NCBI RefSeq assembly: GCF_036971445.1
Contig: NC_091474.1
Location: 185,442,001-185,506,000, forward strand
Reading direction: 5' to 3'
Source: Narcine bancroftii
Lineage: Eukaryota
Length of the DNA: 64,000 bases
Below the pieces are notes generated by a model. The model had not been told where the DNA came from. It was given only the letters and a program-made list of their open reading frames with translations, and did no database searches. Of this stretch, positions 2,789 to 59,203 are shown in pieces. The position numbers and the translations under genes are program-made. Position 1 is the stretch's first letter; each line of letters starts with the position of its first letter.

Positions 2789-3786
2789 TTCTTTTTCTTT
2801 GGCTTGGCTTCGCAGACGAAGATTTATGGAGGGGTAATGTCCACGTCAGCTGCAGGCTCATTTGTGGCTGACAAGTCCGATGCGGGACAGGCAGACACGG
2901 TTGCAGCGGTTGCAAGAGAAAATTGGTTGGTTGGGGTTGGGTGTTGGGTTTTTCCTCCTTTGTCTTTTGTCAGTGAGGTGGGCTCTGCGGTCTTCTTCAA
3001 AGGAGGTTGCTGCCCACCGAACTGTGAGGCACCAAGATGCACGGTTGGAGGCGATATCAGCCCACTGGCGGTGGTCAATGTGGCAGGCACCAAGAGATTT
3101 CTTTAAGCAGTCCTTGTACCTCTTCTTTGGTGCACCTCTGTCTCGGTGGCCAGTGGAGAGCTCGCCATATAACACAATCTTGGGAAGGTGATGGTCCTCT
3201 ATTCTGGAGACGTGACCCACCCAACGCAGTTGGGTCTTCAGCAGCATGGATTCGATGCTTGCGGACTCTGCCAGCTCGAGTATCTTCTTCAGCATGATGC
3301 TGAAACAAGCCATGAAAGACCTCAACAATGAAGACGCTGTTTACATCCAGTACCGCACGGATGGCAGTCTCTTCAATCTGAGGCGCTGCAAGCTCACACC
3401 AAGACACAAGAACAACTTGTCCGTGAACTACTCTTTGCAGATGATGCCGCTTTAGTTGCCCATTCAGAGCCAGCTCTCCAGCGCATGACGTCCTGTTTTG
3501 CGGAAACTGCCAAAATGTTTTGCCTGGAAGTCAGCCTGAAGAAAACTGAGGTCCTCCATCAGCCAGCTCCCCACCATGACTACCAGCCCCCCCACATCTC
3601 TATCAGGCACACAGAACTCAAAACGGTCAACCAGTTTACCTACCTTGGCTGCACCATTTCATCTGATGCAAGGATCGACAAAGAGATAGACAACAGACTC
3701 GCCAAGGCAAATAGCACCTTTGGAAGACTACACAAAAGAGTCTGGAAAAACAATCACCTGAAGAAACACACAAAGATCAGTGTGTG
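2789..3786 (-). mobile_element. RTE-clade LINE, 5'-truncated, with an inverted 5' segment (3' part on minus 2789-3281; RT part on plus 3282-3786)
   Basis: Minus ORF ...QLRWVGHVSRIEDHHLPKIVLYGEL...CNRCNRVCLSRIGLVSHK. Plus part has LFADD and FTYLGCTISSDARID. Same CCAAG/AAGAA tail as the other four copies. Confidence 0.93.
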
Positions 3787-7603: not shown

Positions 7604-8255
7604 AGATAAGCGCATACAGAGCCGTTGTCATACCCACACTCCTGTTCGGCTCCGAATCATGGGTCCTCTACCGGCATCACCTACGGCTCCTAGAATGCTT
7701 CCACCAGCGTTGTCTCTGCTCCATCCTCAACATTCATTGGAGCGCTTTCATCCCTAACGTCGAAGTACTCAAGATGGCAGAGGTCGACAGCATTGAGTCC
7801 ACGCTGCTGAAGATCCAGCTGCGCTGGGTGGGTCACGTCTCCAGAATGGAGGACCATCGGCTTCCCAAGATCGTGTTATATGGCGAGCTCTCCACTGGCC
7901 ACCGTGACAGAGGTGCACCAAAGAAAAGGTACAAGGACTGCCTAAAGAAATCTCTTGGTGCCTGCCACATTGACCACCGCCAGTGGGCTGATATCGCCTC
8001 AAACCGTGCAACTTGGCGCCTCACAGTTTGGCGGGCAGCAACCTCCTTTGAAGAAGACCGCAGAGCCCACCTCACTGACAAAAGGCAAAGGAGGAAAAAC
8101 CCAACGCCCAACCCCAACCAACCAATTTTCCCCTGCAACCGCTGCAACTGTGTCTGCCTGTCCCGCATCAGACTTGTCAGCCACAAACAAGCCTGCAGTT
8201 GACGTGGACATTTACCCCCTCCATAAATCTTCGTCCGTGAAGCCAAGCCAAGAGA
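7604..8255 (+). mobile_element. RTE-clade LINE, 5'-truncated
   Basis: ORF 7774-8202 is nearly identical to the C-terminus of 58225-59148; CCAAGCCAAGAG tail; candidate TSD TAAATGAG at 7590-7597 and 8256-8263. Confidence 0.95.
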
Positions 8256-9101: not shown

Positions 9102-9325
9102 TGTGATAGTACAGATCTATCACCAATGTTACTCTATCTAGACTGTGCTTACAGCGATTGGCTGAAAGCTAAGCCACACCTATTGTCTGGGCCTTAAAGG
9201 GTTGTGTCCCTAGCCAGGTCAGATCATTTCGGACTGGTCGGCCACCTGTGAAGAGCTCCTGTCTTTTGCTAATAAAAGCCTTGGTTTGGATCAACAAGTC
9301 TTTGATTCTTTCGACGAGCTCTAAA
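9102..9325 (+). mobile_element. Solo LTR of the Gypsy family seen at 51546-52661
   Basis: Colinear with the 240-bp LTR at 52422-52661 apart from a ~16-bp deletion; AATAAA present; flanks CCCAT/CCGAT (4/5 TSD). Confidence 0.92.
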
Positions 9326-15044: not shown

Positions 15045-15990
15045 TTTTTGGAATATTTTATTTTTGATTTTCCAAGACACAAATCCAAAACAACAGTTCA
15101 ACTTCTCAACAATGATAATATTACATTACATTTGGAGTCCATTTTCCCCCCACCCACCCACCCACCCCTCTCCTTTCCATACCTGAATACAAGGAAATTA
15201 TTATGTAAATTAAACAAACATAAAGAACCAAAAGTAAAATGAAAAAGATACGAAGCAAGTGCATGTTGTCTGTGCCATGACCCACTTAATTCAACTCAGT
15301 CATTTCATTATTAGAAGTACACAGCTATATCTGTGTACTTATATGTTGCTGATAAGGCCGCCGTACCCCAACAAATGTGTGATATTTCCTCCATAAATTG
15401 TATGTAATTTTCTCAAGTGGAATATAACTCTGCATTTCTGTATTCCATTGTGTCATATTTAGTTGAGAGTCAGACTTCCATGTGACCACCATGCATTTCC
15501 TGACTACTACCAAGGTGATCTTCACAAACTGAATTTGGTACTTAGTTTAAAACTCACATCCATAATGTTTCCCAGAAGGTGAAATAATGGATCCTGTGGA
15601 AAATCCATCCTTGTAATAATTTTCAGAATGTCCCCAGAAGGATCTCACCTTTGTACACAGCCAGATTGAATGAATAATAGTTCCAATCTCCACTGCACAC
15701 CCAAAACACATTTCCAAAATTTCCTGTTTGGATTTAAGTAATTTTTGTGGTGTGAGGTACAGTCGATGCAAGAAATTATATTGCACCAACCTGTACCTGG
15801 CATTAATGACTGCTGTCATGCTGTCCCAACACAGGTCTGACTAGAACTGCTTCTGGATTGTTGTGTCCAAGTCTGTCACCCATCTTTCCCTTGCCTTATA
15901 TAAGCCTGGGTTTGGCCCCTCACTTTGGACTAGGAGATACATCATAGAAATGATTATGGCGATGTGAGAGCCTCTTAATTTGCTGGCTTG
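15045..15990 (-). mobile_element. Decayed L1 3' fragment (ORF2 C-terminus and 3' UTR)
   Basis: ORF 15547-15819 INARYRLVQYNFLHRLYLTPQKL...CFGC...HSIWLC; ORF 15325-15525 RKCMVVTWKS...LEKITY; poly-T at ~15041. Confidence 0.85.
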
Positions 15991-17499
15991 ACATGCTGAG
16001 TTTATACAGCATTCTCTTTTTATTACTAAATGCCATTGATCTATATTTAAAAATGTTGCTGGTCTGTTTTTGCGTTTGTGAATATTGGTCATCATTATTT
16101 TAGGCTTGCTACAGAATTTAATCTTGCTATATATTGCTTTCCACTGTGATCATATTACATATCAATTTCAATCTATATTTCTTCATGATCAGCTGCTTAA
16201 GTATGTTTAGTTAAATTATAATTTGATATTGTCCAGATCCAGGCAAAAGTAGTCCAACTTTACGAATTCAAATACTGTTTTTTTTTTACCCGTACCTTTC
16301 TTATTTGTTGTATCTAAGAGATTGGGAGATATTTTTTGGAACAGTGAGACAGTGTTTTTAGCTCGCAGGTGCAAATAAGGGTTGATGGTTAGAAAAGATC
16401 ACCTACCAGTGGTAACTGACACCTACTCAAAGGTATTATTTCACCTTCAAAACATCACTGAAGTATGTCTGGTATTTGGTGTCTTGAGCTTGCCTTGAGT
16501 GCTCCTTGCAGTGTCATGTTTTTTTTTTCACATATGACTGCAATTCCAAAACTTGAGTGATGATAACTGCTGTTCTATAATCTCGCCGTTCTGCCATTTA
16601 GACAGGAAACCCTTTGTTTTGTAATTAGCAGAATCATTATTCAACTATGCAGAACTTCAGATTCCTGATGAGATTCTTCAGGCTGAGGCCCAAAGTTTAT
16701 GCTATTAAATTACTCGTAATTGATCCAGAAAACTTCTTGAGTATTATTTTAATAAGATGGTGTGCAAGCTCCCACCAAAGAAAGAGCTACCTAGACATAT
16801 AAGGGATCTCTATACCCAGATTGCTTCACAGTTTTCAACAATCGCTTCATTCTGAGACCGAGCTATAGCCTCATAAGAAGAGATAACTTTTCCCACCTAT
16901 CTTCTTCTTCGCAATGACATAAAGTGGGCTTCTAAATAAAAAGCATCCATCCTAATGCAACAAAGCTACAAAATCCCTGAGATGAAAATAATGGTAATGA
17001 TTTTATTGTCATATACTTTGAACTTGCTGCAACTGAGTATACTTAGTCAAGTTAAAAAGAGACAATAAATACAAAAATAAAGTAATAAATATTCACAGTT
17101 CAACTAGTTCAAAAATAGTGACTTAGCAATAGTCTAATCAATCCTTTGTGATGTCCTCAAAAAAATCCAGTAAGCACTGATAACCCATTAGACAATTGTT
17201 TGGAAATTCTAAGAATTTGGCATTTGGCTTTCCCCACTCCTTTTGATCACATAAAGTTAATTGGAAAATGTATTGCGTTACTGTGTACCTTTTAAAATAA
17301 GTGAATTAAAAGTGTGTTGGAGTGTCAATAAAATATGGTCCTGATAATATGCTTGTCTGGTTCCAATTAAGACCTGTTATATGCCGCTGTATCTACTTTG
17401 CCATTCTCCATTGCCTCATTAAATTAACCATGATTTATTTCACAATTTGAAATATCTCTCATTCATTTCTTTAACATTTTAAGCACTTTGTGTGCAACA

Positions 17500-30689: not shown

Positions 30690-33010
30690 TTTCAAGTCCT
30701 GTTTGGAGAGATAAGGTGATGACCAAGATAATGAGAATGGAATGCTACCAGAAAGCCAAATTGCTCAACAATCAACCTAGAAATTACACGTCTAGAATTA
30801 GTGGTGGGGAGATTTTCAGAGACAATAATTCAGGTTGAAACTAGCTGACATTTGAAAATATATGAGTAAATGAATAAAAGTCAGAATGGATTTGTTGCAG
30901 GCAAATTAAATGTGATTAACGATTTAGCGAATGGTTTCTTGAAATGACTTCTGAGTCATTTGCCAAGGTACCACATTACGCAGTGCTCCGCCGATGATCC
31001 TTCCCCGAGAGGGGTTGCAGTTGGCCCCTTGGAGCCGGGACAGCACATTCATAGATGTAAGTGTCCTAACGTAAGAGCAGAGAATCTCTGCCTTTATAGT
31101 TGGACTTTTTCACTGCATGAAAGACCCTAAAGTTCACTTTATTATAGGGGTGTAATTATTTACTTATTTAAGACCATTCTGGTTCGTTTTCTTAATTATC
31201 CTTAATCTGAATTTTCTGCTCTTTTGTCCTTCTGTCAACAGGAACAGTTTGTTTTCATTTACTTAATGATCTTGAACACTTCCATCAAATATAATTTTAA
31301 CCTGCTCTGTTCTGAGAGAAAAATGGAAGGTTCGAGAGAGAACATGTTTATTAGACAAAAGATGAGTGTCCATAGGTGTTTTCCAAAGTTAAATATTGGG
31401 AACATTGCAATATTTATTAGTGGCTGGATGTGACTATAAATAGTATAAAGTACTAGATGAATTGAAAGTTTAGAATGTTACAAATAAGGAAGAAATTTGT
31501 AATGAACAGACATGCATCAGATATAATGATAAAATACATCAGATTTTTTTTTATCTCATACCATGAGGAAAATTCTTTGGCTTGGCTTCGCGGACGAAGA
31601 TTTATGGAGGGGGTAAAAAGTCCACGTCAGCTGCAGGCTCGTTTGTGGCTGACAAGTCCGATGCGGGACAGGCAGACACGGTTGCAGCGGCTGCAGGGGA
31701 AAATTGGTGGGTTGGGGTTGGGTGTTGGGTTTTTCCTCCTTTGCCTTTTGTCAGTGAGGTGGGCTCTGCGGTCTTCTTCAAAGGAGGTTGCTGCCCGCCT
31801 AACTGTGAGGCACGAAGATGCACGGTTTGAGGCAATATCAGCCCACTGGCGGTGGTCAATGTGGCAGGCACCAAGAGATTTCTTTAGGCAGTCCTTGTAC
31901 CTTTTCTTTGGTGCACCTCTGTCACGGTGGCCAGTGGAGAGCTCGCCATATAACACGATCTTGGGAAGGCGATGGTCCTCCATTCTGGAGACGTGACCCA
32001 TCCAGCGCAGCTGGATCTTCAGCAGCATGGACTCGATGCTGTCGACCTCTGCCATCTCGAGTACTTCGACGTTAGGGATGTAAGCGCTCCAATGGATGTT
32101 GAGGATGGAGCGGAGACAAATAAATTTGAACAAAATGGTACAATTTTTGTCAGGGAACTAGTTTCAGAATGAATTATGAGATGACAGAGAGGAACTATTC
32201 ACAGTGTAAAAAGGTGGACCGTAACATTCCACAAGGACAATTACTTCAAACATATTAATAATTTATACTTAATAATGAAAAATACTATTTACATGTTTGC
32301 AAATAATTTTAATTTAGATGGGAGGAATCAGTCTGAGGATTGCAACAAATTACATGGAAATATTAATAAATGTTTGGAATGGGAGAATAAGTATCAAATT
32401 AAATTCAATAGCAATAAACGTGAGATAGCCATTTTTTTAGGAATTTATAACCTGAAAGTTGCGAATCCAGGTGGAGCAGAGAAATAAGATTGTACCACAG
32501 GTTAACATGATGATAAATAAAACAAAACAAACATTGGGATATATTTCTCGAAAGAAGGTGCATTAATGATTTGAGACTTGTTAAATCACTCTTAGATTTT
32601 GGTATTAAATTATTCTCACCAGGTCATGAGAAAGAATATAAAGGCATTGGGGAGGGCACAGGGAAGATTTACAAGGATGATACCAGAAATAGAAGGATGT
32701 ACTTGTTGACTCTTGGAAAAAAAGAGAGCTGAGGGATGATTTTTAAAATTGTTTTAATGCAGAAGGAATATTTCCACTGTCAATAGAGGCAGAGAGACAG
32801 CAGAGAGACATCCAAAAAGGAATTAAAACAAATCTTCTTTCCCCAAAGAGTTGTTTGTGAAGCTCACCATTGCAGCTACATAACTACAATGAATGAGATG
32901 CTGGGTGAGCACATGAAAATTACACTGATCTATTTAAGTAAGGAAAGACAAGAAGTAGTCCAAGTTGCTCTTCAACATCAACATAGACTGGTTTTGCTGG
33001 CAGGCCTGCT
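30690..33010 (+). mobile_element. Very old CR1 RT-to-tail remnant, interrupted by an RTE copy
   Basis: Decayed SQNGF..GK (30880), KVPH (30965), MFANN (32292) and a QGRFTRMIP-like stretch (32658). Confidence 0.55.
31573..32119 (-). mobile_element. RTE-clade LINE, 5'-truncated
   Basis: ORF 31627-32133 CLRSILNIHWSAYIPNVEVLEMAEVDSIES...SHKRACS; family tail at 31573-31600. Confidence 0.95.
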
Positions 33011-33570: not shown

Positions 33571-33925
33571 AAATTGAATGTGAGATTTTATTGTCATATA
33601 CATAAGAACAATGTATAATGTGAGTATTTTTATAAACGAGTCTAGTTTGCAAAGACAGAAAAAGATAACTAATATAAAAGTATAGATCTGTGAATAGTCA
33701 CAGCTGGAGTTCATGCAAAAAAAAGTAATGTTTGAAAAATACAGGCAAATCTTTGGATGGTCCCAGTTTATGGTCATGGTTTTGGTATTACAGAGAGGTT
33801 CAAGAGAATGATAGCCATTGGGCAAAAAGCTGTTCTTGAACCAAGAAGTCCTGGACTTCTGAAGAAATTTTAATTATTTTCAATTCTGAATACTATACTT
33901 TTAGGAGCTCTCATTGTCTGGGAGG

Positions 33926-34099
33926 TGTCATGATAATGAATATGTATGAGATGTACCGGAAGTCACGTGGTATGAGAGAGAGATAAGGACACAAGCAAGA
34001 GAACAAAGGAAACTGGAGAATAAAGACACTCAGAAGTTTACCTGATAAACTTGTGTTTAATGTTTTAATAACTTCACATTTCGGGCCACAAATGTGACA
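33926..34099 (+). repeat. 5' LTR
   Basis: Direct repeat of 38514-38687 with 4 mismatches by eye; contains AATAAA. Confidence 0.98.
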
Positions 34100-34100
34100 C

Positions 34101-34114
34101 TGGCGACGAGGATG
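34101..34114 (+). promoter_or_regulatory. Primer-binding site, tRNA-Ser(GCT)
   Basis: TGGCGACGAGGATG, 1 nt after the LTR, complementary to the tRNA-Ser(GCT) 3' end ...CAUCCUCGUCGCCA (recalled sequence). Confidence 0.88.
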
Positions 34115-34229
34115 AAAGAAGCTTGAAGAAAATTAAAGACTAAACAAGATTACAGAGGATTACAGACAACTTCAAGGTGATAAGAATTTTCTCTGTGACT
34201 CAGTACTTTTGGGGCTGGAATATTTCCTT

Positions 34230-37200
34230 ATGGCTGGGGCAGACAGTGACTTTCTAACACATAGTGGAATTGCTCATTTTGACCCAACGGGTGATGCAAG
34301 CACTGTAAGTGTGAAGTGGAAGGCATGGCTGGAAGAATTTGAATCCTACGCCGACAGTCGTGGCCTATTTCTAGATACCGGTACAGTTGAACAAAAAGCG
34401 CAGAGAAGGGCGTTACTTCTTTTCACTGCAGGACCCTCAGTTCGGGAAACATTTAAGACACTTTTGAATACTGGAAGAAAGGATGAGTACCGGAAAGCGG
34501 TAGATGCATTAAACGCACACTATGTAGTGACACCGAATGCTACATTTCAACGCCATTTGTTTCGGAGAACGAGACAAGAAGATGGCCAGACAATTGCTCA
34601 GTACGTGACGAGACTACGCCAGCTAGCTGTTGGATGCAATTACATGCCAGCTGATTTGGACAACCAATTATTGGATCAAGTCGTACAGCACTGCAGATCA
34701 GATAAACTCAGAAGACGTCTACTGGAAAGAGGGAGTGAGTTGGAACTCACCGATGCTTTAACCATTGCTGCTGTATTAGAGGCTGCTGAAGGGCAATTTC
34801 ATACCATGACCCTGAAAGACAACTCAAGCCAGCAAATTAAGAGGCTCTCACATCGCCATAATCAGCCAAGACATACGCCGACACAGGACGTGGAGTGTTA
34901 TAGATGTGGAAACTGAGGTCACTTTGGAAAAGACCCATATTGCCCGGCCAAAGGCAAAGTTTGCAGAAAGTGTGGAGGTAAGGACCACTTTGCAAAGAAG
35001 TGCAAAAGCAAGTCTAATGCAGACCAGAAGAGGAAGAGTACAACTTCCAAAGGCAAAGCCTGGGGGAAAGGAAAGTATCCTGGAAAGAAAGATACCATTC
35101 GCCAGATAGACGGTGACGATGATGATACCCAGGAGGAACAGAGTTGTTACCAATTTACGTTGAATGAAGTACGTCATGAGAAGGTCCCAGTGATCATTGG
35201 TGGAGTGACAGTTCAGGTCATTGTAGACTCAGGCAGTGACAGTAATGTGATCGATCGACATTTATGGGAGAAGTTGAAAAGGAAAAAGATCATCTGTACC
35301 TCAAAGAAGTGTTCCAAGAAACTGTATCCATACACAGCAACCAAGCCATTGCAGACCATTGGATGTTTTACTGCAACTGTTGAAGCTGGAGATAAGTACA
35401 CCGAAGCAGAGTTTATGGTCATAGAAGAGAGGGGAGAACCATTGCTGAGTAGAAGCACAGCGCAAGACCTGGCAATACTTCATACTGGAGCTTGTGTCAA
35501 TTCAATTCAGTCATATGAGGATATGAAGCAAGAATTCCCCGCAGTCTTCCAAGGAGTAGGAAAGCTGAAAGGTCGACAATTGAAGCTAGCGGTAGATGAA
35601 ACGGTCAAACCCAAGGCACAACCAATGCGCCGAACTCCGTTTGAACTTCGTGGGAAAGTCGAAGCCAAAATTAAAGAATTGATCGAACAAGACATTATTG
35701 AACCGGTGGAACATTCGACACAATGGGTCAGTCCTGTAGTGATTGTGCCCAAACCAAAGGGTGACATAAGACTATGTGTTGACATGAGAATGGCCAATGA
35801 AGCTATAATTAGAGAATGACACCCTATACCAACAGTGGAGGAAATACTTCAAGAACTAACTACCAGCAAGGTATTCTCAAAAATTGATCTGAAATGGGGC
35901 TATCATCAATTAGAGCTGGATCCAGGTTCCCGAGATATAACTACATTTGTGACTCACTGTGGATTGTATCGTTACAAGAGACTATCATTTGGAATTAATG
36001 CAGCTTCGGAGATCTACCAGTATGAAATCCATCGAGTGATTCAAGGCATTCCTGGAGTTGCCAACATTTCTGACGACATCATAGTCCATGCACCAACAAA
36101 GGAAGAGCATGACAAACGGTTGAGGCGTGTACTATCTAGACTACAGGAGGCAAGCCTTACCGTGAATGGAAACAAGTGCCAGTTCGGTGTGTCAGAAATG
36201 GACTTCATGGGACACAGACTTACACGGAAAGGACTAAACCTTGCAGAGGCCAAGGTGAAAGCTATTGCAGAGGCACGTGCACCTCAGAACGCAACAGAGG
36301 TGAGGAGTTTCCTGGGATTGGTCAATTTTTGTGCAAAGTTCATTCCTAATTTCGCTACAGTGGCAGAACCACTAAGGAAACTAACCAGGAAAGGTGTACC
36401 ATTTCATTTTGGATCTGAGCAGAAGAAAGCGTTCACAGCGCTGAAGCAAAGCATGACAGATGCAAAAACTCTTGGATATTACGATTCGGCGGCATCAACC
36501 AAAGTCATAGCAGATGCCAGCCCAGTTGGTTTAGGAGCCGTGTTGGTCCAGATGCATGATGGAGGACCAAGAATCATTGCCTATGCCAGCAGATTGTTAT
36601 CAGATGTGGAAAGAAGATACTCTCAGACAGAGAAAGAAGCACTCGGACTTGTACGGGCCTGTGAGAGGTTCCATGCATATTTATACGGCATTGAATTTGA
36701 ACTCATCACAGATCATAAGCCATTAGAGGTGATCTATGCACCTAGATCCAAACCATGTGCCAGAATAGAGAGATGGGTACTCAGACTACAACCCTACAAA
36801 TATAAAGTAATCCACATAGCATTGAAAGCAAACATTGCTGATCCGCTGTTCAGATTGGTGAAGGATGGATGTCCACAATCCAAGTCAGAATTGGGAACAG
36901 AGACAGAGAGCTTTGTACGCTTCGTAGCTATTCAGGCAACACCGAAAGCTGTGACTACGAAGGAGGTCGAGAGAGAATCTGAACGTGATCCAGAACTCAT
37001 GGAAGTAAGAGAATGCATACAGAGTGGACAATGGGACAACTGTACTCACAAGGCTTACATTCCCATTAGAAACGAACTTTGTTGCATCGGACAGTGTGTA
37101 TTGAGAGGTTGCAGATTGGTGATACCGCAAAGATTGAGACCGAAGATCGTATCCTTAGCGCATGAAGGACACCTAGGCATTGTTGGTACCAAGCAAAACC

Positions 37201-38327
37201 TCAGAACCAAGGTTTGGTGGCCAGGTTGTGATAAAGACGCAGAGAAATTTGTTAAAACTTGTCACGGATGTCAAATCACAAGTAGGAGTAATCCGCCAGA
37301 ACTGATCCGGAGTACGCAATTTCCGACAGGACCATGGATCGACGTAGCTGTTGATTTTCTTGGACCTTTACCGACGGGTGAATCAATTATGGTAGTGATA
37401 GATTACTACAGCAGATACTATGAGTACGTGGTGTTGAAGTCCACAACCACTGAAAAAACAATACAAGCGTTAGCAGAGATATTTGCAAGATATGGATTAC
37501 CTGTTACATTATACTCTGACAATGGTCCACAATTCATTTCAGAGACATTTGCGGAATACGTGAGGACCACAGGTATCCACCATCATAAAATAACTCCGAA
37601 ATGGCCACAAGCCAATGGAGAAGTAGAGAGACAAAATCAGTCCATTGAAAAACGATTGAGGATTGCACAAGCAGAAGGACAAAATTGGCGAGAAGCATTG
37701 CTATCTTATGTGGCTGTCTATCGAGCAACGCCTCATGCAACCACTGGAAAAAGTCCTGCAGAAGCATTTTTTGGGAGAAAAATCCGCACAAAAATGCCAG
37801 AAATAAAGGAAATCCAAGACGACCAGGAGATGAGGGACCACGATGCTGAAAAGAAAGGTGCAGCAAAGCTGTACACAGATTCGAAACGTGGAGCCAAGTA
37901 TTCAAACATCATGCCAGGAGATAATGTTCTAGTGAGGCATGAAACTGGTGGTAAGCTAGACACACCTTATTACCATCAACCCTATACTATCGTATCCAGA
38001 AGTGGCAGTATGGTGACAGTCAAGTCTCCGACTGGAGTCCTGTATAAGAGAAATGTATCCGGTGTAAAAAGGTACCAGTCCAGAGATACATCGAGCGAAG
38101 AGGTTGAAAGGCCAATACGAGATGCTGAAACTGAGAGACCTGATGATGTTCCAGAGGCAGTTACCAGCACTCCTGATGAAGTGACTAGAGCGCCAGAAAC
38201 ACCCGAAGCCATGGAGAGCAGTATTTCCGACGCTGAGAGTGAACAACCGAGAAGCGACGACAATATCGCAGGCAGGCCGAAACGAGACCGGAAAGTGCCC
38301 AAACGATACGAAGACTTTGTGCCATAG
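34230..38327 (+). pseudogene. gag-pol: Single-frame gag-pol polyprotein (~1365 codons) with two premature TGA stops (34914-34916 and 35817-35819)
   Basis: ORFs at 34209, 35160 and 35835 share one frame. Two zinc knuckles CYRCGN*GHFGKDPYC and CRKCGGKDHFAKKC; protease IVDSGS; RT KIDLKWGYHQ and NISDDII; RNase H DASPVGLG, EKEAL, TDHKPL; integrase HEGH..CHGC, AVDF, SDNGPQF, NGEVER. Confidence 0.95.
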
Positions 38328-38503
38328 TTTTAATAAGAACTTTGGGACAGTATTTTAATCTTATATCATAAAGTGCATGTATGAGTGCTGTAGGAAGTAA
38401 ATTTTATGTAGTTGAGTTATAGTATTACCATTAGTTACGATGTTTGTACGTTTCCGAGGGATATTGGTAAGTAATATTACTAAAGTAAAGTTTATTTCTG
38501 ATT

Positions 38504-38513
38504 AAAGGAGGGA
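38504..38513 (+). promoter_or_regulatory. Polypurine tract
   Basis: AAAGGAGGGA directly before the 3' LTR. Confidence 0.9.
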
Positions 38514-38687
38514 TGTCATGATAATGAATATGTATGAGATGTACCGGACGTCACGTGGTATGAGAGAGAGATAAGAACACAAGCAAGAGAACAAAGGAAA
38601 CGGGAGAATAAAGACACTCAGAAGTTTACCTGATAAACTTGTGTTTAATGTTTTATTAACTTCACATTTCGGGCCACAAATGTGACA
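38514..38687 (+). repeat. 3' LTR
   Basis: Direct repeat of 33926-34099. Confidence 0.98.
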
Positions 38688-47925: not shown

Positions 47926-48332
47926 GTGCTAAATAAGATAGACTCAGAATAAATCTAGCAGTTCCAAATCAGAAATCCCATGTGATTGAACGTGTGAGAG
48001 GTTTTAGTTATAACGAGATTTTACAGGGAAGAAGGGAAATTGTTGTGATGAAGGGAATGCACCAGTTTTCCAGAGGATCAGCAGCTGAAACATGATTTGT
48101 CCAAGTCTGCAATGTCAAGACTTGGGAGCAGAACAAATAAAATGTGTCGACCCCACCTTCCTCTTCCCCAGCTGTATGGGATCCTGCAATCGCTTGATGA
48201 TGTATGTTGGCCTGATTGACCAGCAGGGGCAGAAACTACTGGTAATCTAATAAAAACAGAAATAGAATTTATTACTACACAACTAATCAGGATGAAAGTC
48301 TCTCTGTTATTCACAAGAAAGTATAATTTAGT

Positions 48333-48782
48333 CCTCGAGATGGCAGAGGCCGACAGCATCGAATCCACGCTGCTGAAGATCCAACTTCGTTGGGCAGGTT
48401 ACGTCTCCAGAATGGAGGTCCATCGCCTTCCCAAGATCGTGTTATATGGCGAGCTCTCCACTGGCCACCGTGACAGAGGTGCACCAAAGAAGAGGTACAA
48501 GGACTGCCTAAAGAAATCTCGCCTCCAACCGTGCATCTTGGCGCCTCACAGTTCGGTGGGCAGCAACCTCCTTTGAAGAAGACTGCAGAGCCCACCTCAC
48601 TGACAAAAGACAAAGGAGGAAAAACCCAACACCCAACCCCATCCCACCAATTTTCCCCTGCAACCGCTGCAACCGTGTCTGCCTGTCCCACATCGGACTT
48701 GTCAGCCACAAACAAGCCTGCAGCTGACGTGGACATTACCCCTCCATAAATCTTCGTCTGCGAAGCCAAGCCAAAGAAAAGA
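48333..48782 (+). mobile_element. RTE-clade LINE, 5'-truncated, with a ~44-bp internal deletion
   Basis: LEMAEADSIESTLLKIQLRW; perfect 10-bp TSD ATAATTTAGT (48323-48332 and 48783-48792); AAATCTC joined directly to GCCTCCAACC. Confidence 0.95.
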
Positions 48783-51030: not shown

Positions 51031-51079
51031 TTTAATATGGATGTCTTGATGGAGATCATAAGATCTAGGAGTAGAAAGA

Positions 51080-52788
51080 GGCCCATTGGCAAATAGTGTC
51101 TGCTCTACCATTCTAATCATGAACTGATCCATCCTTCCACTCAACCCCACTCCCTGGATTTCTCCCCTAAACCCTTGATCCCCTGACTAATCAAATATCT
51201 GTCAATCTCTGCCTTAAAGGCACCCAACCATCTCACTTCCACAGCTGCCTGTGTCAACAAGTTCCACAAACTCACAACCCTCTGACTAAAGAAATATTTC
51301 CGTATCTTTGTTATAAATTTACATTTTTTTTTCCTGATGGTTGTATCTGAGATAAAACAAGACATAGGTTCCCCAGCAAGACTCAATTCACACCAGTGCT
51401 CAAGGGCAGAATCAGGCTGGGAAATGTTCCGTCAAAGTTTGAGAGTGACATAAAACATTCAACAAATGATTCTGATAATCCGCCATTGTAAGTCATAAGT
51501 TTTCAATAGTTTAACGTTGAAAAAAACTTGCCAGTCCTATTATATTGTGATAGTACAGATCTAACACCACTGCCACCTCAGTGATACAGGCCCTTCACAG
51601 TATTTTCACTATCTTCGGGTACCCCAATTCCATCCACAGTGATAGGGGGTCCTCATTCATGAGTGCAGAGCTGCAACAGTACCTTCTGGAGTGTGGTATT
51701 GCTTCAAGCAGGACCACGAGCTATAACCCACGCGGTAATGGCCAGGTCGAGAGGGAGAATGCCACCATATGGAGAGCGGTTACACTGGCTCTCCGGTCTA
51801 AAGGTCTCCCCACCTCTCACTGGCAGGAGGTTCTCACTAGTGCTTTACACTCCATCCGCTCCCTCCTATGTACTGCAACAAATGCCACCCCCCACGAAAG
51901 GATGTTCCTTTTCCCGAGGAAATCCGAATCGGGAACCACTGTACCGGCATGGCTCACCGTCCCTGGCCCCGTCCTTTTGCGACGCCACGTCCGGCACTCA
52001 TAGAACGACCCCTTGGTCGACCGAGTGACTCTACTCCACGCAAACCCACATTACGCATACGTGGAGTTCCCAGACGGGCGGGAGGACACTGTTTCGGTGC
52101 GGGACCTAGCTCAGGACGCGGTAGACCCAGCAAACCCCCCAACTCCTTCTCCAGGCCCCGTGCCGCAACAGAAGGACCAACAGCATCCCAATGACCCGGG
52201 CCACCCTGCCGACAAAACGACTGGGGAATTGAGCGACGGAGCAATCGCTCCCGACGAGCCCGCTGGCAACACCACTCCAGTGACCCCAATCCCGGCACCA
52301 CGGCGGTCACGCCGGATGGTCAGACCCCCTGACCGCTACAGTCCTTGACCTACCCCTTCCTTTCATTCTCTCCCTCGTTTTTGTTTTTTTTTCCAGGGTC
52401 AATTCTCCAAGAAGGGGTGAATGTGATAGTACAGATCTATCACCAATGTACATAGTGTATATAGTTACTGTATCTAGACTGTGCTTACAGCGATTGGCTG
52501 AGAGCTAAGCCACTCCTATTGTCTGGGCCTTAAAGGGTTGTGTCCCTAGCCAGGTCAGATCATTCCGGACTGGTCGGCCACCTGTGAAGAGCTCCGGTCT
52601 TTTGCTAATAAAAGCCTTGGTTTGGATCAACAAGTCTGTGGTTCTTTCGACGAGCTCTACATATATCCAACCATCTTTTTCTACCTTCTTTGTCAGATAC
52701 GGGTTTTAAGGATTGATTATAGACTAGGTATTAAAAGTTTTAAAAGATCTTTTTATTAGAGATAATTTTGCTTCTTTTGACAGTAAAA
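51080..52788 (+). repeat. Left arm of a 588-bp inverted duplication (51080-51545 plus 52667-52788), split by a Gypsy insertion
   Basis: Reverse complement of 53289-53876 with ~3 mismatches; contains an antisense CR1 tail, unassigned sequence and the start of an L1 fragment. Confidence 0.97.
51546..52661 (+). mobile_element. Internally deleted Gypsy element: ~24-bp 5' LTR stub, integrase core and C-terminus, PPT, complete 240-bp 3' LTR (52422-52661)
   Basis: TSD TATAT (51541-51545 and 52662-52666); IHSDRGSSF, YNPRGNGQVER, TNATPHER, PRRSRRMVRPPDRYSP; in-frame stop at 52001-52003; PPT AAGAAGGGGTGAA. Confidence 0.96.
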
Positions 52789-53430
52789 CCAAATCAAGCA
52801 ATTAAGGGACATGATTCTAATTTGATCTTAAAAATCACTGATAAAGTTTGAAAAATCTTTTCCTAAAATTTTTCTGAACTAGAGCAAGCCCAAAACATAT
52901 GGACCAATGAAGCCTCAAAGATTTTACACTTATCACATAATGGATCAATATTAGAATAAAAGTGAGATAATTTAACTTAATATATGTACTCTGTGCACCA
53001 CATTGAATTGCAACAATGTCCTGCACAGAAAGTGGACCCGTTAATCAGATCATCTGCGTGTGATAAATTCAGATCAAGTTCCCAATCATTCTTGATCTTA
53101 ACTAGTGAAGCTTTTCTTAATCCATCAAATTATTGCAAATAATTGATATTGAGCCTCTATGACAAAGTTGAAAATGAAAAAAAAAATCAAGAATGTTTGC
53201 TTCGGAGATTCATGGAAAATCAGAGCATTTGGACTGAACAAAATATCTGGTAAAAATCTGAAAAAAATTTATTATTAGGTAGTTTAAATTTTACTGTCAA
53301 AAGAAGCAAAATTATCTCTAATAAAAAGATCTTTTAAAACTTTTAATACCTAGTCTATAATCAATCCTTAAAACCCGTATCTGACAAAAAAGGTAGAAAA
53401 AGATGGTTGGATATAATAGGACTGGCAAGT
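52789..53430 (-). mobile_element. Decayed L1 ORF2 C-terminal segment, inverted relative to its own 3' end
   Basis: Minus strand gives YRLGIKSF.DLFIRDNFASFD, KNDWELDL, PLCDKCK..EASLVHMFWACS across broken frames. Confidence 0.85.
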
Positions 53431-53876
53431 TTTTTTCAACGTTAAACAATTGAAAACTTATGACTTACAATGGCGGATTATCAGAATCATTTGTTGAATG
53501 TTTTATGTCACTCTCAAACTTTGACGGAACATTTCCCAGCCTGATTTTGCCCTTGAGCACTGGTGTGAATTGAGTCTTGCTGGGGAACCTATGTCTTGTT
53601 TTATCTCAGATACAACCATCAGGAAAAAAAAATGTAAATTTATAACAAAGATACGGAAATATTTCTTTAGTCAGAGGGTTGTGAGTTTGTGGAACTTGTT
53701 GACACAGGCAGCTGTGGAAGTGAGATGGTTGGGTGCCTTTAAGGCAGAGATTGACAGATATTTGATTAGTCAGGGGATCAAGGGTTTAGGGGAGAAATCC
53801 AGGGAGTGGGGTTGAGTGGAAGGATGGATCAGTTCATGATTAGAATGGTAGAGCAGACACTATTTGCCAATGGGCC
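53289..53876 (-). repeat. Right arm of the 588-bp inverted duplication (uninterrupted, carries the empty Gypsy site)
   Basis: GGTTGGATATAATAGGAC is the reverse complement of GTCCTAT-TATAT-CCAACC with a single TATAT. Confidence 0.97.
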
Positions 53877-54702
53877 AAAGGAAACTTTAGTTTTTAACCT
53901 CTCTGAGAGCTAGATGGGCAATTTTGATGAAATGGAAAGACAGCACTCCATCTACTCATATTCAATGGTTACACGATATCATGTCTTTCCTAAGTTTAGA
54001 AAAAAAATAAAAATGTAAAGTTTAACTTTCATAAGATGTGGGGCCCATTCATGGATTACTACCAGAATTTAAAAAAAACTGAGGAGTTTGGATGTTCCTG
54101 AGATGCATTGTCTGGTTTCTGGATGTTGTCATTCAATTCATATCTATGTATATTATTTATACATGTTAACCTTGTAACCTTGTTTAGAGACCATGAGTTT
54201 AGAGGGAGGAGTTTGATTACAAGGTGGGGGCGGGGGGGGGGGGGGCCTCCTTTTTCTCTTTTCTCTTTTCTTCAGAGACCTAATAGTTAAATGTGAGTTT
54301 AATTGAGAATGATAAACATTGATCATATTACAGAAGATAAAGTTAATATCTGAGAAATATAAATTCCCTGTCTTTTTATAAGGGGATTTTATTTCTAACT
54401 TACCTTAAAAGAAAGTATATTTTTGCCTCAGGTTTTTTTTAAAACTTCCCCCTTTCTGAGGGATTATCCTTTTTTTTATTCCTTTTCAATATTATATGTT
54501 ATGAAGAATGTGTCAACTGTTGATTCTATCCAATCTTAGATTTAATGTTTTGGATATGATTAAGTTAAGAAAAGAATTATGGCGATGTTTTTCATTTACA
54601 ATTTATGTTCATTATGTATGTGATCCAGTTTATGCCATTTGCACGATTATTGTGCACAGGTTTTTATTAAACTCAATAAAAAATATGTTAAAAAGGAAAA
54701 GA
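53877..54702 (+). mobile_element. L1 ORF2 end and 3' UTR
   Basis: TSLRARWAILMKWKDSTPSTHIQWLHDIMSFLSLEK, KMWGPF; G-run; ends CTCAATAAAAAATATGTTAAAAAGGAAAAG. Confidence 0.85.
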
Positions 54703-55134
54703 TCACTGAGTAAAGTTCAATATAAAAAAATTGCTGGAGAAACTCAGCAGGTCATGTGGCATCCATGGAGAGAAATAGGCATTTGATGTTTTGGGCCTAG
54801 ACATTTCATCAGGAATACCAAGGTCAATCAAACGCATGAGTAAGAAAGTGGGGGATTCAACCATGTGTTTCCATAGAGGCTGCAGCATTCTCATCCCACT
54901 TTTCAAATCTTTTACGATCTAATTGAAGGGGGGGGGGGGGTTGAAAATGTAGCTCCTTGTTGAACTCTGATGCATTGAACATTCACTGCCTTAACAGTGT
55001 TGATTTTAGAAGAATATTTTCGGCCACCAAGACTGATCTAACAGCTAAGTGTGAAAGTAGCTTTTAAACAGCTGTTTATAAGCAATTATTTATATGATGC
55101 CACTGCTATGGAATTCAGTCTCTCCTGTCCAATA

Positions 55135-56918: not shown

Positions 56919-57816
56919 AGGCCATTTCATGTCAGGCCTCCGCCTGGAGGCTGGCTACAAGAGCGGATCTAAAACTTACCTTTCAGATAGCAGCCCTAAA
57001 AGGCTGCTCCAGCGTCCCATTTATATCCAGAGGTGCCTTGTAGATCCCTCCAGAGCTGATGGAGGCAGGGGCGACTGGTACCATAGTGCCACCTGTCATT
57101 AAAAAAGTGGCAGAGCAATGGCCGTCTTCCCTACCCATAATCCCCCATGCAGTTAAAACCGCTCTGTGGTTCCCAGAACAGGTCCAGCTGTGCGGGGGTT
57201 TATGGGTAGGAAAGATGGCCATTGCTCTGCCATGTTTTGAGCCACAGAGAGTGGCCCCAAACACCAAAGAGGCCCAGTGTGGCTGTCTCAGCTTGTACTG
57301 GCTGCTCCCAACAGCTCCGGCCAGCTCCGACAGCTCCTGTTGCTCAGACGGCTCCTGCTGTCCTGCTAGCACCGCTGACAGCTCCCGCTGCCCTGACAGA
57401 CCCCGCTGCCCTGATGGCCCCTACTGGTAGCTCCCACTTCCCCGAGGGCTCCCGCTGCCCCGACAGCCCCCACTGATGGCCCCCGCTGCCCCAAAGGCTC
57501 ACACTGCCCCGACAGCCCCCACTAACAGCTCCCGCTGCCCCGACAGCTGCCACCCCTGCCTTGGAGGGAGAGGGTTGATTGGGGAGGTGGGTCACGGGCT
57601 GACAGCATCATCAGCCCGTCCCAACCAGCCACGCAGCGGTTGTACATTCAGGTCAGGCGGCGGAGCGCAGCACTCCACTGATTATACTTCCCCAAGAAGG
57701 GTTGGAATCGACGCCTCGGAGCCAGCCATGGTGCATTCAGGAAGGTACGTCTTTAGCCATAAGGGCGAAGAACCTTCACCTTTACAGATGGGTGTTTTCC
57801 TTGCTTGAAGGTGCCT
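56919..57816. mobile_element. GC-rich non-autonomous TIR element (PIF/Harbinger-like, tentative)
   Basis: Imperfect TIRs AGGCCATTTCA / TGAAGGTGCCT, left end overlapping a TTA; internal hairpin at 57108-57232; minisatellite; core shared with 19911-21035. Confidence 0.55.
57310..57560. repeat. Degenerate ~17-bp minisatellite (GACAGCTCCCGCTGCCC-like)
   Basis: Repeated ACAGCTCCCGCTGCCC and CAGCCCCCACT units. Confidence 0.85.
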
Positions 57817-57994
57817 TCTAGCACAAGTGTTCAGATGTGTGGGAATATGTAATAAACACTGGAGGAAGATGTTGAGCTATTAAAGAAGAATGATCAGAGA
57901 AAAAGGATTTGCTAGAAGGAGTCTGGGCTAAAGAGGAAAAGTTTAGAAAATCTGTGTTAATCTTGTCCATTTAAGATAACTTTATGTTCAACAT

Positions 57995-59203
57995 GGAGGA
58001 CCTCAGTTTTCTTCAGGCTGACTTCCAGGCCAAACATTTTGGCAGTTTCCGCAAAGAAGGACGTCAAGCGCTGAAGAGCTGGCTCTGAATGGGCAGCTAA
58101 AGCGGCATCGTCTGCAAAGAGTAGTTCACGGACAAGTTTCTCTTGTGTCTTGGTGTGAGCTTGCAGGCGCCTCAGATTGAAGAGACTGCCATCCATGCGG
58201 TACCGGATGTAAACAGCGTCTTCATTGTTGGGGTCTTTCATGGCTTGGTTCAGCATCATGCTGAAGAAGATTGAAAAGAGGGTTGGTGCGAGAACACAGC
58301 CTTGCTTCACGCCATTGTTAACTGAGGTCCTCCATCAGCCAGCTCCCCACCATGACTACCAGCCCCCCCACATCTCCATCGGGCACACAAAACTCAAAAC
58401 GGTCAACCAGTTTACCTATCTCGGCTGCACCATTTCATCAGATGCAAGGATCGACAATGAGATAGACAACAGACTCGCCAAGGCAAATAGCGCCTTTGGA
58501 AGACTACACAAAAGAGTCTGGAAAAACAACCAACTGAAAAACCTCACAAAGATAAGCGTATACAGAGCCGTTGTCATACCCACACTCCTGTTCGGCTCCG
58601 AATCATGGGTCCTCTACCGGCACCACCTACGGCTCCTAGAACGCTTCCACCAGCGTTGTCTCCGCTCCATCCTCAACATCCATTGGAGCGCTTACACCCC
58701 TAACGTCGAAGTACTCGAGATGGCAGAGGTCGACAGCATCGAGTCCACGCTGCTGAAGATCCAGCTGCGCTGGATGGGTCACGTCTCCAGAATGGAGGAC
58801 CATTGCCTTCCCAAGATCATGTTATATGGCGAGCTCTCCACTGGCCACCGTGACAGAGGTGCACCAAAGAAAAGGTACAAGGACTGCCTAAAGAAATCTC
58901 TTGGTGCCTGCCACATTGACCACCGCCAGTGGGCTGATATCGCCTCAAACCGTGCATCTTGGCGCCTCACAGTTTGGCGGGCAGCAACCTCCTTTGAAGA
59001 AGACCGCAGAGCCCACCTCACTGACAAAAAGCAAAGGAGGAAAAACCCAACACCCAACCCCAACCAACCAATTTTCCCTTGCAACCGCTGCAATCGTGTC
59101 TGCCTGTCCCGCATCGGACTTGTCAGCCACAAACGAGCCTGCAGCTGACGTGGACTTTTTACCCTCTCCATAAATCTTCGTCCGTGAAGCCAAGCCAAAG
59201 AAG
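57995..59203 (+). mobile_element. RTE-clade LINE with an inverted 5' segment (minus 57995-58320; plus 58321-59203)
   Basis: Perfect 11-bp TSD ATGTTCAACAT (57984-57994 and 59204-59214). Minus ORF GVKQGCVLAPTLF...LFADD; plus ORF open from TEVLHQ to SHKRACS. Confidence 0.97.

What the first reader, a model, noticed from the sequence alone, without database searches (positions are those of the whole stretch)
51080..53950. Recent inversion with a 588-bp inverted duplication that can be reconstructed from an old L1 (X-A-B-C became X-A-inv(B)-inv(A)-C)
Seen: arms 51080-52788 (minus the insert) and 53289-53876 are both 588 bp, differ at ~3 positions, and flank a 500-bp spacer. The left arm is continuous with the CR1 tail on its left. 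The right arm is continuous with the spacer as a minus-strand L1 ORF2. The next L1 motifs (RARWAILMKWK...) resume on the plus strand right after the right arm. Inference: one event inverted the segment and duplicated 588 bp at one breakpoint, as expected from the staggered-break inversion model or a double template switch (FoSTeS/MMBIR). The result is a long near-perfect inverted repeat that could form a hairpin and flip its spacer.
Basis: partly seen in the sequence, partly recalled or inferred. Interest (0 to 1): 0.7.

Follow-up and report, generated by a model that had tools for sequence, protein, structure and literature searches.

The report
Inversion scar with mirrored duplicated edge
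A 588-base stretch of repeat-filled animal DNA is present twice, back to front, around a flipped 500-base piece with about 40 bases missing, likely the scar of one local DNA copying or repair accident of a kind already catalogued in human genomes, with no function shown.

Summary
Confirmed. Both arms are 588 bp with 3 substitutions around a 500-bp spacer; a 1,116-bp deleted LTR retrotransposon with a 5-bp target duplication sits in the left arm only. In 14 of 14 other LINE copies arm and spacer run on as in the right arm, and 10 of 14 place the 53877+ piece 36-41 bp after the spacer end, so X-A-B-C became X-A-inv(B)-inv(A)-C with about 40 bp lost. The arm's middle occurs only twice in the assembly: not a transposon end. 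Short-read contig depth over the arm is 1.6-1.7 times flanking depth, 1.66 predicted, but no listed contig bridges either new junction. One junction has 4-nt microhomology, the other 0-1. Best reading: one opposite-strand copying event (template switch type 3-1-2-4; human class dupINVdel), 0.55. Two more young local inverted duplications lie within 864 kb, and the scan noted this kind before on other DNA. Ordinary class, clean example.

The parts
51055..51320 (-). CR1-like LINE 3' fragment (family name from recalled motif) that crosses the outer end of the left arm; marks the left arm's outer end as the original join X|A
   Evidence: 38 of 38 non-self genome matches start before 51080; weak tblastn to an RT-element C-terminus, E 0.008
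51080..51545 (+). Left arm, outer part (466 bp)
51320..51526 (.). Single-locus sequence inside the arm (approximate ends); mirrored at about 53430-53636
   Evidence: 53416-53640 has 2 matches in the assembly, both here
51527..51545 (+). 5' truncation point and first bases of the old L1-clade copy (mirrored at 53429)
   Evidence: paralog alignments begin at the 53429 equivalent
51546..52661 (+). Internally deleted LTR retrotransposon (Gypsy-like, name recalled): 18-bp stub of the 5' LTR, 3' part of integrase, 240-bp 3' LTR (52422-52661); TG...CA ends; target duplication TATAT at 51541-51545 and 52662-52666; absent from the right arm
   Evidence: Pfam rve E 9e-9; 39 further places at 98-99% over the internal part; the stub junction occurs once in the assembly
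52667..52788 (+). Left arm, inner part (122 bp of L1)
52785..52788 (.). New junction J1 (A end | inverted B): 4-nt microhomology AAAA
   Evidence: 9 of 14 paralogs, the closest among them, carry TTTT right after the B end; chance of 4 nt or more 0.029
52789..53288 (-). Spacer = inverted B, 500 bp of L1-clade ORF2 C-terminal region with a C-x2-C-x8-H-x4-C motif
   Evidence: closest paralog has RVT_1 upstream
53289..53876 (-). Right arm = inverted A, 588 bp (141 bp L1 + 447 bp non-L1), with the empty single TATAT site at 53411-53415
53876..53877 (.). New junction J2 (inverted A | C): 0-1 nt microhomology, no inserted bases; about 40 bp of L1 missing before C
53877..54700 (+). C: end of L1 ORF2, 3' UTR, AATAAA and A-rich end

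Best explanation
This is a local duplication-inversion-deletion scar, likely made in one DNA replication or break-repair event in which about 1,088 bases (B then A) were copied from the opposite strand. SHOWN: an old 5'-truncated L1-clade copy beside a CR1-like piece gave the order X-A-B-(about 40 bp)-C; today it reads X-A-inv(B)-inv(A)-C; an LTR element with a target duplication lies in the left arm only. INFERRED: synthesis left the template at the end of A, paired through 4 A:T bases with the opposite strand at the end of B, copied B and A backwards, and rejoined at C without homology, skipping about 40 bp (four-point type 3-1-2-4); an equivalent version starts from a break at B|C, with copying that runs off at the broken end and a microhomology join at J1. 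The LTR element inserted afterwards and later lost most of its length. No function is proposed: the structure is likely neutral debris.
For: Order and loss from paralogs. Both arms come from this one L1 copy: 12 alignment columns, among them an 8-bp deletion, are shared by both arms and absent from 8 of 8 paralogs aligned. Only two new junctions, all four switch points within about 1.13 kb of the ancestral sequence, no untemplated bases. 4-nt microhomology at J1, P about 0.03. Type 3-1-2-4 makes exactly an inverted repeat with an inverted spacer and is 23% of high-confidence short events in human versus chimp (PMC5453318, section 6). Arm depth in short-read contigs fits two copies per haplotype. 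Arm divergence (3 in 1,176 site-lineages) and the insert's private changes (5 in 1,098) agree (binomial p 0.49), so arm homogenisation is not needed.
Against: J2 has 0-1 nt of homology, so the return is not microhomology-guided. The copied tract (1,088 nt) is far above the 128-nt maximum of the short-range great-ape set (PMC7954356). The B end and the C start were neighbours (about 40 bp), which PMC5829575 says template switching gives no reason to expect. A neighbouring inverted duplication has an un-inverted spacer, so the first step of the two-step rival does occur in this genome. The microhomology is inferred from paralogs (9 of 14), not from the true ancestral allele. No listed contig bridges J1 or J2.
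Confidence: 0.55

Rival explanations
1. Two steps: a fold-back (intra-strand) inverted duplication first, X-A-B-inv(A)-C, primed by the T-run at the B end on the A-run at the A end after a break at B|C, then a flip of the spacer by recombination between the new arms. The two junction sequences are the same as those observed.
For: Explains the 40-bp loss and the closeness of B end and C start as one processed break. Inverted duplications are the commonest non-L1 inversion class in human long-read data, median 284 bp, mostly with 1-15 bp microhomology (PMC12350158). A neighbour at C15:185329469-185331246 is of this un-inverted type. Human inversions between near-identical inverted repeats recur (PMC6748972).
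Against: Needs a second event; whether 0.1-0.5 kb arms flip at the human rates is not shown by the passages read; PMC5453318 argues that short switches are inter-strand; no un-flipped allele seen, although contigs could not show one.
Confidence: 0.25
2. Staggered breaks: nicks 588 nt apart on either side of A (or offset breaks on sister chromatids) plus a break at B|C, fill-in, and end joining in inverted orientation.
For: Produces this exact product with duplication at one end only; duplications of 46 bp to about 1.9 kb, median 321 bp, in Drosophila (PMC1885836); blunt J2 and the small loss suit end joining.
Against: Needs three or more breaks within 1.13 kb and unwinding of 588 bp, a difficulty the paper itself names; the 4-nt microhomology is not required by it.
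Confidence: 0.14
3. Assembly artefact (fold-back chimeric read or merged haplotypes).
For: Neither new junction is bridged by a listed contig; the bin just left of J1 has zero depth in 3 of 3 runs of the matching sample; those runs may be the assembled individual, so are not independent.
Against: Arms differ at 3 sites and by an insertion with a clean target duplication; both alleles at 53448 and the left-arm allele at 53547 occur in contigs, and arm depth is 1.6-1.7 times flanking depth; about 40 bp are missing at the join.
Confidence: 0.04
4. L1 twin priming at insertion, or terminal inverted repeats of a foldback transposon.
For: An inverted L1 5' part beside a sense 3' part with a small internal deletion is the twin-priming shape (PMC2837659); one paralog (L011) has that shape.
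Against: 447 of the 588 arm bases are not L1; the arms are 99.5% alike while the closest L1 copy is 88%, and they share private changes, so the event is much later than the insertion; the arm middle has no third copy; no target duplication flanks the arms.
Confidence: 0.02

Closest known systems
Four-point template switch, type 3-1-2-4 / 1-3-4-2 (PMC5453318; abstract, section 6 and passages read; PMC7954356, passages)
   Same: New inverted repeat with an inverted spacer from two switches; order of switch points matches.
   Different: Copied tract 1,088 nt against median 12, maximum 128 nt in the great-ape set; polarised here from repeat paralogs, not from an outgroup genome.
Complex SV class dupINVdel / delINVdup (PMC5338099, PMC5829575 section 33, PMC6286558; passages read)
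   Same: Inversion with a duplication at one end and a deletion at the other; a human case has about 930 bp duplicated and about 600 bp deleted.
   Different: Deletion only about 40 bp; non-human vertebrate; fixed or homozygous in the one individual seen; later LTR insertion in one arm.
Inverted duplications in human long-read data (PMC12350158; passages read)
   Same: Size range (median 284 bp) and short microhomology.
   Different: Here the intervening segment is also inverted.
Staggered-break inversions of Drosophila (PMC1885836; passages read)
   Same: Inverted duplication at one breakpoint lets the direction of change be read.
   Different: Those inversions separate distant syntenic blocks; here the inverted unique part is 500 bp.
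L1 twin priming (PMC2837659; passages read)
   Same: Inverted L1 part, small internal deletion.
   Different: Non-L1 DNA duplicated, no flanking target duplication, event far younger than the L1.

Membership tests
dupINVdel / delINVdup complex SV | Inverted segment relative to the ancestral order | tested here: met
   14 of 14 paralogs run A into B as in the right arm
dupINVdel / delINVdup complex SV | Duplication at one breakpoint | tested here: met
   588-bp arms; depth 1.6-1.7x
dupINVdel / delINVdup complex SV | Deletion at the other breakpoint | tested here: met
   36-41 bp in 10 of 14 paralogs; 2 have separate 1.1-kb insertions there; 2 unresolved
dupINVdel / delINVdup complex SV | Un-rearranged allele seen in another haplotype or species | tested here: inconclusive
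   No such joint listed in the 6 runs laid; the two other samples hardly cover the locus
Template switch 3-1-2-4 | Product equals L-to-1, reverse complement 2-to-3, 4-to-R with order 3<1<2<4 | tested here: met
Template switch 3-1-2-4 | Arose in a single replication event | not testable with these tools
   Fold-back plus flip gives the same junctions
MMBIR / FoSTeS | Microhomology at the junctions | tested here: inconclusive
   4 nt at J1 (P 0.029), 0-1 nt at J2
Foldback / TIR DNA transposon | Arms multicopy in the genome | tested here: not met
   2 matches, both here
Foldback / TIR DNA transposon | Target duplication outside the arms | tested here: not met
   Outer flanks differ and a CR1-like piece runs through the left end
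L1 twin-priming insertion | Inverted part is L1 transcript only, same age as the insertion | tested here: not met
   447 bp non-L1; arms 99.5% alike, closest L1 88%
Recurrent (toggling) inversion between inverted repeats | Both spacer orientations segregate | not testable with these tools
   Contigs break at the first arm-diagnostic site, 53389
L1-clade LINE (the marker) | Non-LTR RT upstream and C-terminal CCHC motif, A-rich 3' end | tested here: met
   RVT_1 E 7e-7 in closest paralog; motif in 52866-52976; the window pieces alone gave no Pfam family above cut-off; clade name recalled

The most novel reading that the evidence does not exclude
Kilobase-scale local inverted duplications are a frequent, ongoing mutation class in this genome (3 young ones in 864 kb), they arise by fold-back and then toggle their spacers; because old repeats record the ancestral order, thousands could be polarised without an outgroup, testing directly whether spacer inversion comes with the event (inter-strand switch) or later (recombination between arms).
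Probability: 0.25. Interest if true: 0.45.

Novelty: new member of a known kind. Interest (0 to 1): 0.2.

Why it matters
As a single locus, little: it is a clean, datable example of a catalogued class in a region where 85 scanned open frames gave only retroelement-type Pfam families. Its value is as a method case: three nested clocks (old L1, duplication, LTR insertion) fix the order of events from one genome, and the copied tract is about eight times longer than the longest short-range switch in the great-ape set, between that scale and large complex SVs.

Tried and rejected
Terminal repeats of a multicopy element: rejected. Spacer and C from different L1 families: rejected. Twin priming: rejected. 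Arm homogenisation by conversion: no sign, the two clocks agree, but 3 and 5 changes give little power. Read test of J1, J2, ancestral allele and spacer flip: inconclusive; only assembled short-read contigs were available, 8 pieces per run were shown, and contigs run through both branch points unbroken, which may be graph simplification (inference) or absence of the junction. Run X5 (another sample) covers 218 bp of the arm at depth 2.5, no junction. Run X6 holds only the LTR element at low depth: taken as no evidence of transfer or habitat. Host gene: no non-retroelement Pfam family in 85 open frames of the window (9 chosen pieces at the locus and 76 other frames of 95 aa or more; 8 such frames were not scanned), which does not exclude an intron. 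A target duplication around the old L1 was looked for by eye and not found. Spacer orientation of the neighbour at C15:185213358 could not be polarised. Literature search for inverted duplication + cartilaginous fish + structural variant gave one unrelated report; no supplements were read.

Full report
1. Observation. The inverted repeat is there as described. 51080-51545 pairs with 53876-53411 and 52662-52788 with 53415-53289. With the insert removed both arms are 588 bp and differ at three positions; the spacer is 52789-53288. The insert 51546-52661 (1,116 bp) has TG...CA ends and TATAT on both sides; the right arm has one TATAT. It carries an integrase core fragment (Pfam rve, E 9e-9) and a 240-bp 3' LTR; the genome search listed 39 further places at 98-99% over its internal part (a lower bound). 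In 24 of 24 copies examined the sequence upstream of the 51564 equivalent is internal element sequence, whereas here it is an 18-bp LTR stub; that join occurs once in the assembly, so the deletion is likely private to this copy.

2. Ancestral order. A search with 52667-54720 returned LINE copies in which window 53429 down to about 52785 matches as one piece and 53877 onward matches beside it on the other strand. Of 18 loci aligned, three overlap others and one holds only C, leaving 14 distinct copies with the A-B part; 14 of 14 cross 53288/53289 unbroken. In 10 of the 14 the C start lies 36-41 bp after the B end (41 in the closest copy), two carry unrelated 1.1-kb insertions there, and two were not resolved (BLAST-based estimate 38-41 in 9 copies). 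On the left, 38 of 38 non-self CR1-like matches run across 51079/51080. So the left arm keeps the old outer join, the right arm the old inner join, and the new joins are J1 (52788/52789) and J2 (53876/53877). Both arms share 12 alignment columns, an 8-bp deletion among them, that none of 8 paralogs has: they are copies of this one element. At 52688/53389 8 of 8 paralogs agree with the left arm. The LINE is L1-clade by its C-x2-C-x8-H-x4-C motif, the RT domain upstream in the closest copy and its A-rich end; the names L1, CR1 and Gypsy are recalled, from no repeat library.

3. Junctions. At J1 four A are shared between the end of A and the start of inverted B if the lost sequence began with TTTT, as in 9 of 14 paralogs including the closest. 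Random inverted joins in this L1 piece reach 4 nt or more in 2.9% of trials. At J2 the overlap is 0-1 nt. No untemplated bases at either.

4. Is it real? Six runs were found: four of one sample that may be the assembled individual, two others; all are short-read contigs. The contig over 53359-53719 has depth 17.3 in X1 (five single-copy contigs listed 9.5-11.6) and 22.7 in X2 (11.3-15.0), ratios about 1.6-1.7; 1.66 is expected if both arms are on both haplotypes. Left-arm letters appear at 53448 and 53547. Against: no listed contig bridges J1 or J2, the bin 52727-52777 has zero depth in the three matching runs, and contigs pass both branch points unbroken. That may be graph simplification (inference); it is a missing confirmation. 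Three substitutions and a one-sided insertion with a target duplication are not what a chimeric read makes.

5. Age. Three differences over two 588-bp lineages give 0.26% per arm (95% range 0.05-0.75); the insert has 5 private changes in 1,098 bp, one of them a CpG change (0.46%); the two agree (p 0.49). The closest L1 copy is 88% identical. Order: L1 insertion, long gap, rearrangement, LTR insertion, deletion within it (the last two inferred from the empty right-arm site and the unique stub). If the 7e-10 per generation measured in epaulette sharks (PMC10587355, passages) applied, which rests on my recalled guess that this is a cartilaginous fish, the event would be roughly 1-11 million generations old.

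6. Mechanism. The product is type 3-1-2-4 of the four-point model, 23% of high-confidence short events (PMC5453318, section 6), and dupINVdel among human complex SVs (PMC5338099; a case of about 930 bp duplicated and 600 bp deleted in PMC5829575). I give 0.55 to one opposite-strand copying event, at a fork or at a break at B|C. Against it: tract length 1,088 nt versus at most 128 in the great-ape set (PMC7954356), no homology at J2, and the closeness of B end and C start (PMC5829575). A fold-back duplication followed by a flip between the arms yields the same two junction sequences (my inference) and explains that closeness; inverted duplications are the commonest non-L1 inversion class in humans (PMC12350158) and repeat-flanked inversions recur (PMC6748972): 0.25. 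Staggered breaks with end joining (PMC1885836): 0.14. Artefact 0.04. Twin priming or transposon ends 0.02.

7. Consequences. The inner part folds as a long stem in single-stranded DNA (-182.6 kcal/mol, z -16), trivially. In double-stranded DNA instability falls steeply with spacer length, while in long single-stranded regions even widely spaced repeats interact (PMC10164571, abstract and introduction). With a 500-bp loop and a 1.1-kb bulge this locus is likely quiet. No gene was seen in the window (incomplete), transcription untested.

8. How common. In 864 kb around and including the window there are 7 inverted pairs of 100 bp or more, 94% or more alike, within 5 kb: two are this finding, three are pairs of multicopy repeats, two are further local inverted duplications (258 bp, 98%, spacer 968; 223 bp, 99%, spacer 1,332). 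The second has an un-inverted spacer in the paralogs aligned; the first could not be polarised. Leaving out the selected locus, 2 in 800 kb. Earlier scan notes describe the same kind in other genomes (unchecked); none covers this place. One search for such variants in cartilaginous fish found nothing relevant; that is too narrow to claim absence from print.

9. Verdict. Real, correctly reconstructed, a new member of a known kind. Interest 0.2.

Noticed in passing
G000:C15:185329469-185331246 (L064:7469-9246): 223-bp inverted duplication, 99% alike, 1,332-bp spacer not inverted relative to paralogs of the host repeat.
   Followed up: partly
G000:C15:185213358-185214840 (L113:1358-2840): 258-bp inverted duplication, 98% alike, spacer 968 bp; the right arm continues into a CR1-like piece, the left arm is the truncated copy.
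   Followed up: partly
window 51546-51572: The LTR insert's 18-bp stub joins internal sequence just before an imperfect 8-base look-alike between LTR and integrase region; the join is unique in the assembly.
   Followed up: partly
L011:1403-2881: An L1 copy of the same family with the shape of a twin-priming inversion.
   Followed up: no
L007 and L012: Two unrelated insertions of about 1.1 kb fall within the same roughly 40 bp of L1 that is lost here; chance or a weak spot.
   Followed up: no
L014: Tandem duplication of the same L1 region.
   Followed up: no
window 33921-38687: A second LTR retrotransposon with gag, protease, RT, RNase H and integrase domains and LTRs 96.7% alike.
   Followed up: no
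window 9102-9323: LTR of the same family as the insert, 90% with one gap.
   Followed up: no
window 15951-15991 and 34824-34864: 41-bp exact inverted match 19 kb apart, one copy inside the LTR element.
   Followed up: no
window 57093-57247 and 57372-57551: Imperfect palindrome and a GC-rich minisatellite.
   Followed up: no
window 2792-3559, 7604-8251, 31573-32119, 48330-48780, 57993-59202: Five copies of one dispersed repeat, 85-97% alike, in both orientations.
   Followed up: no
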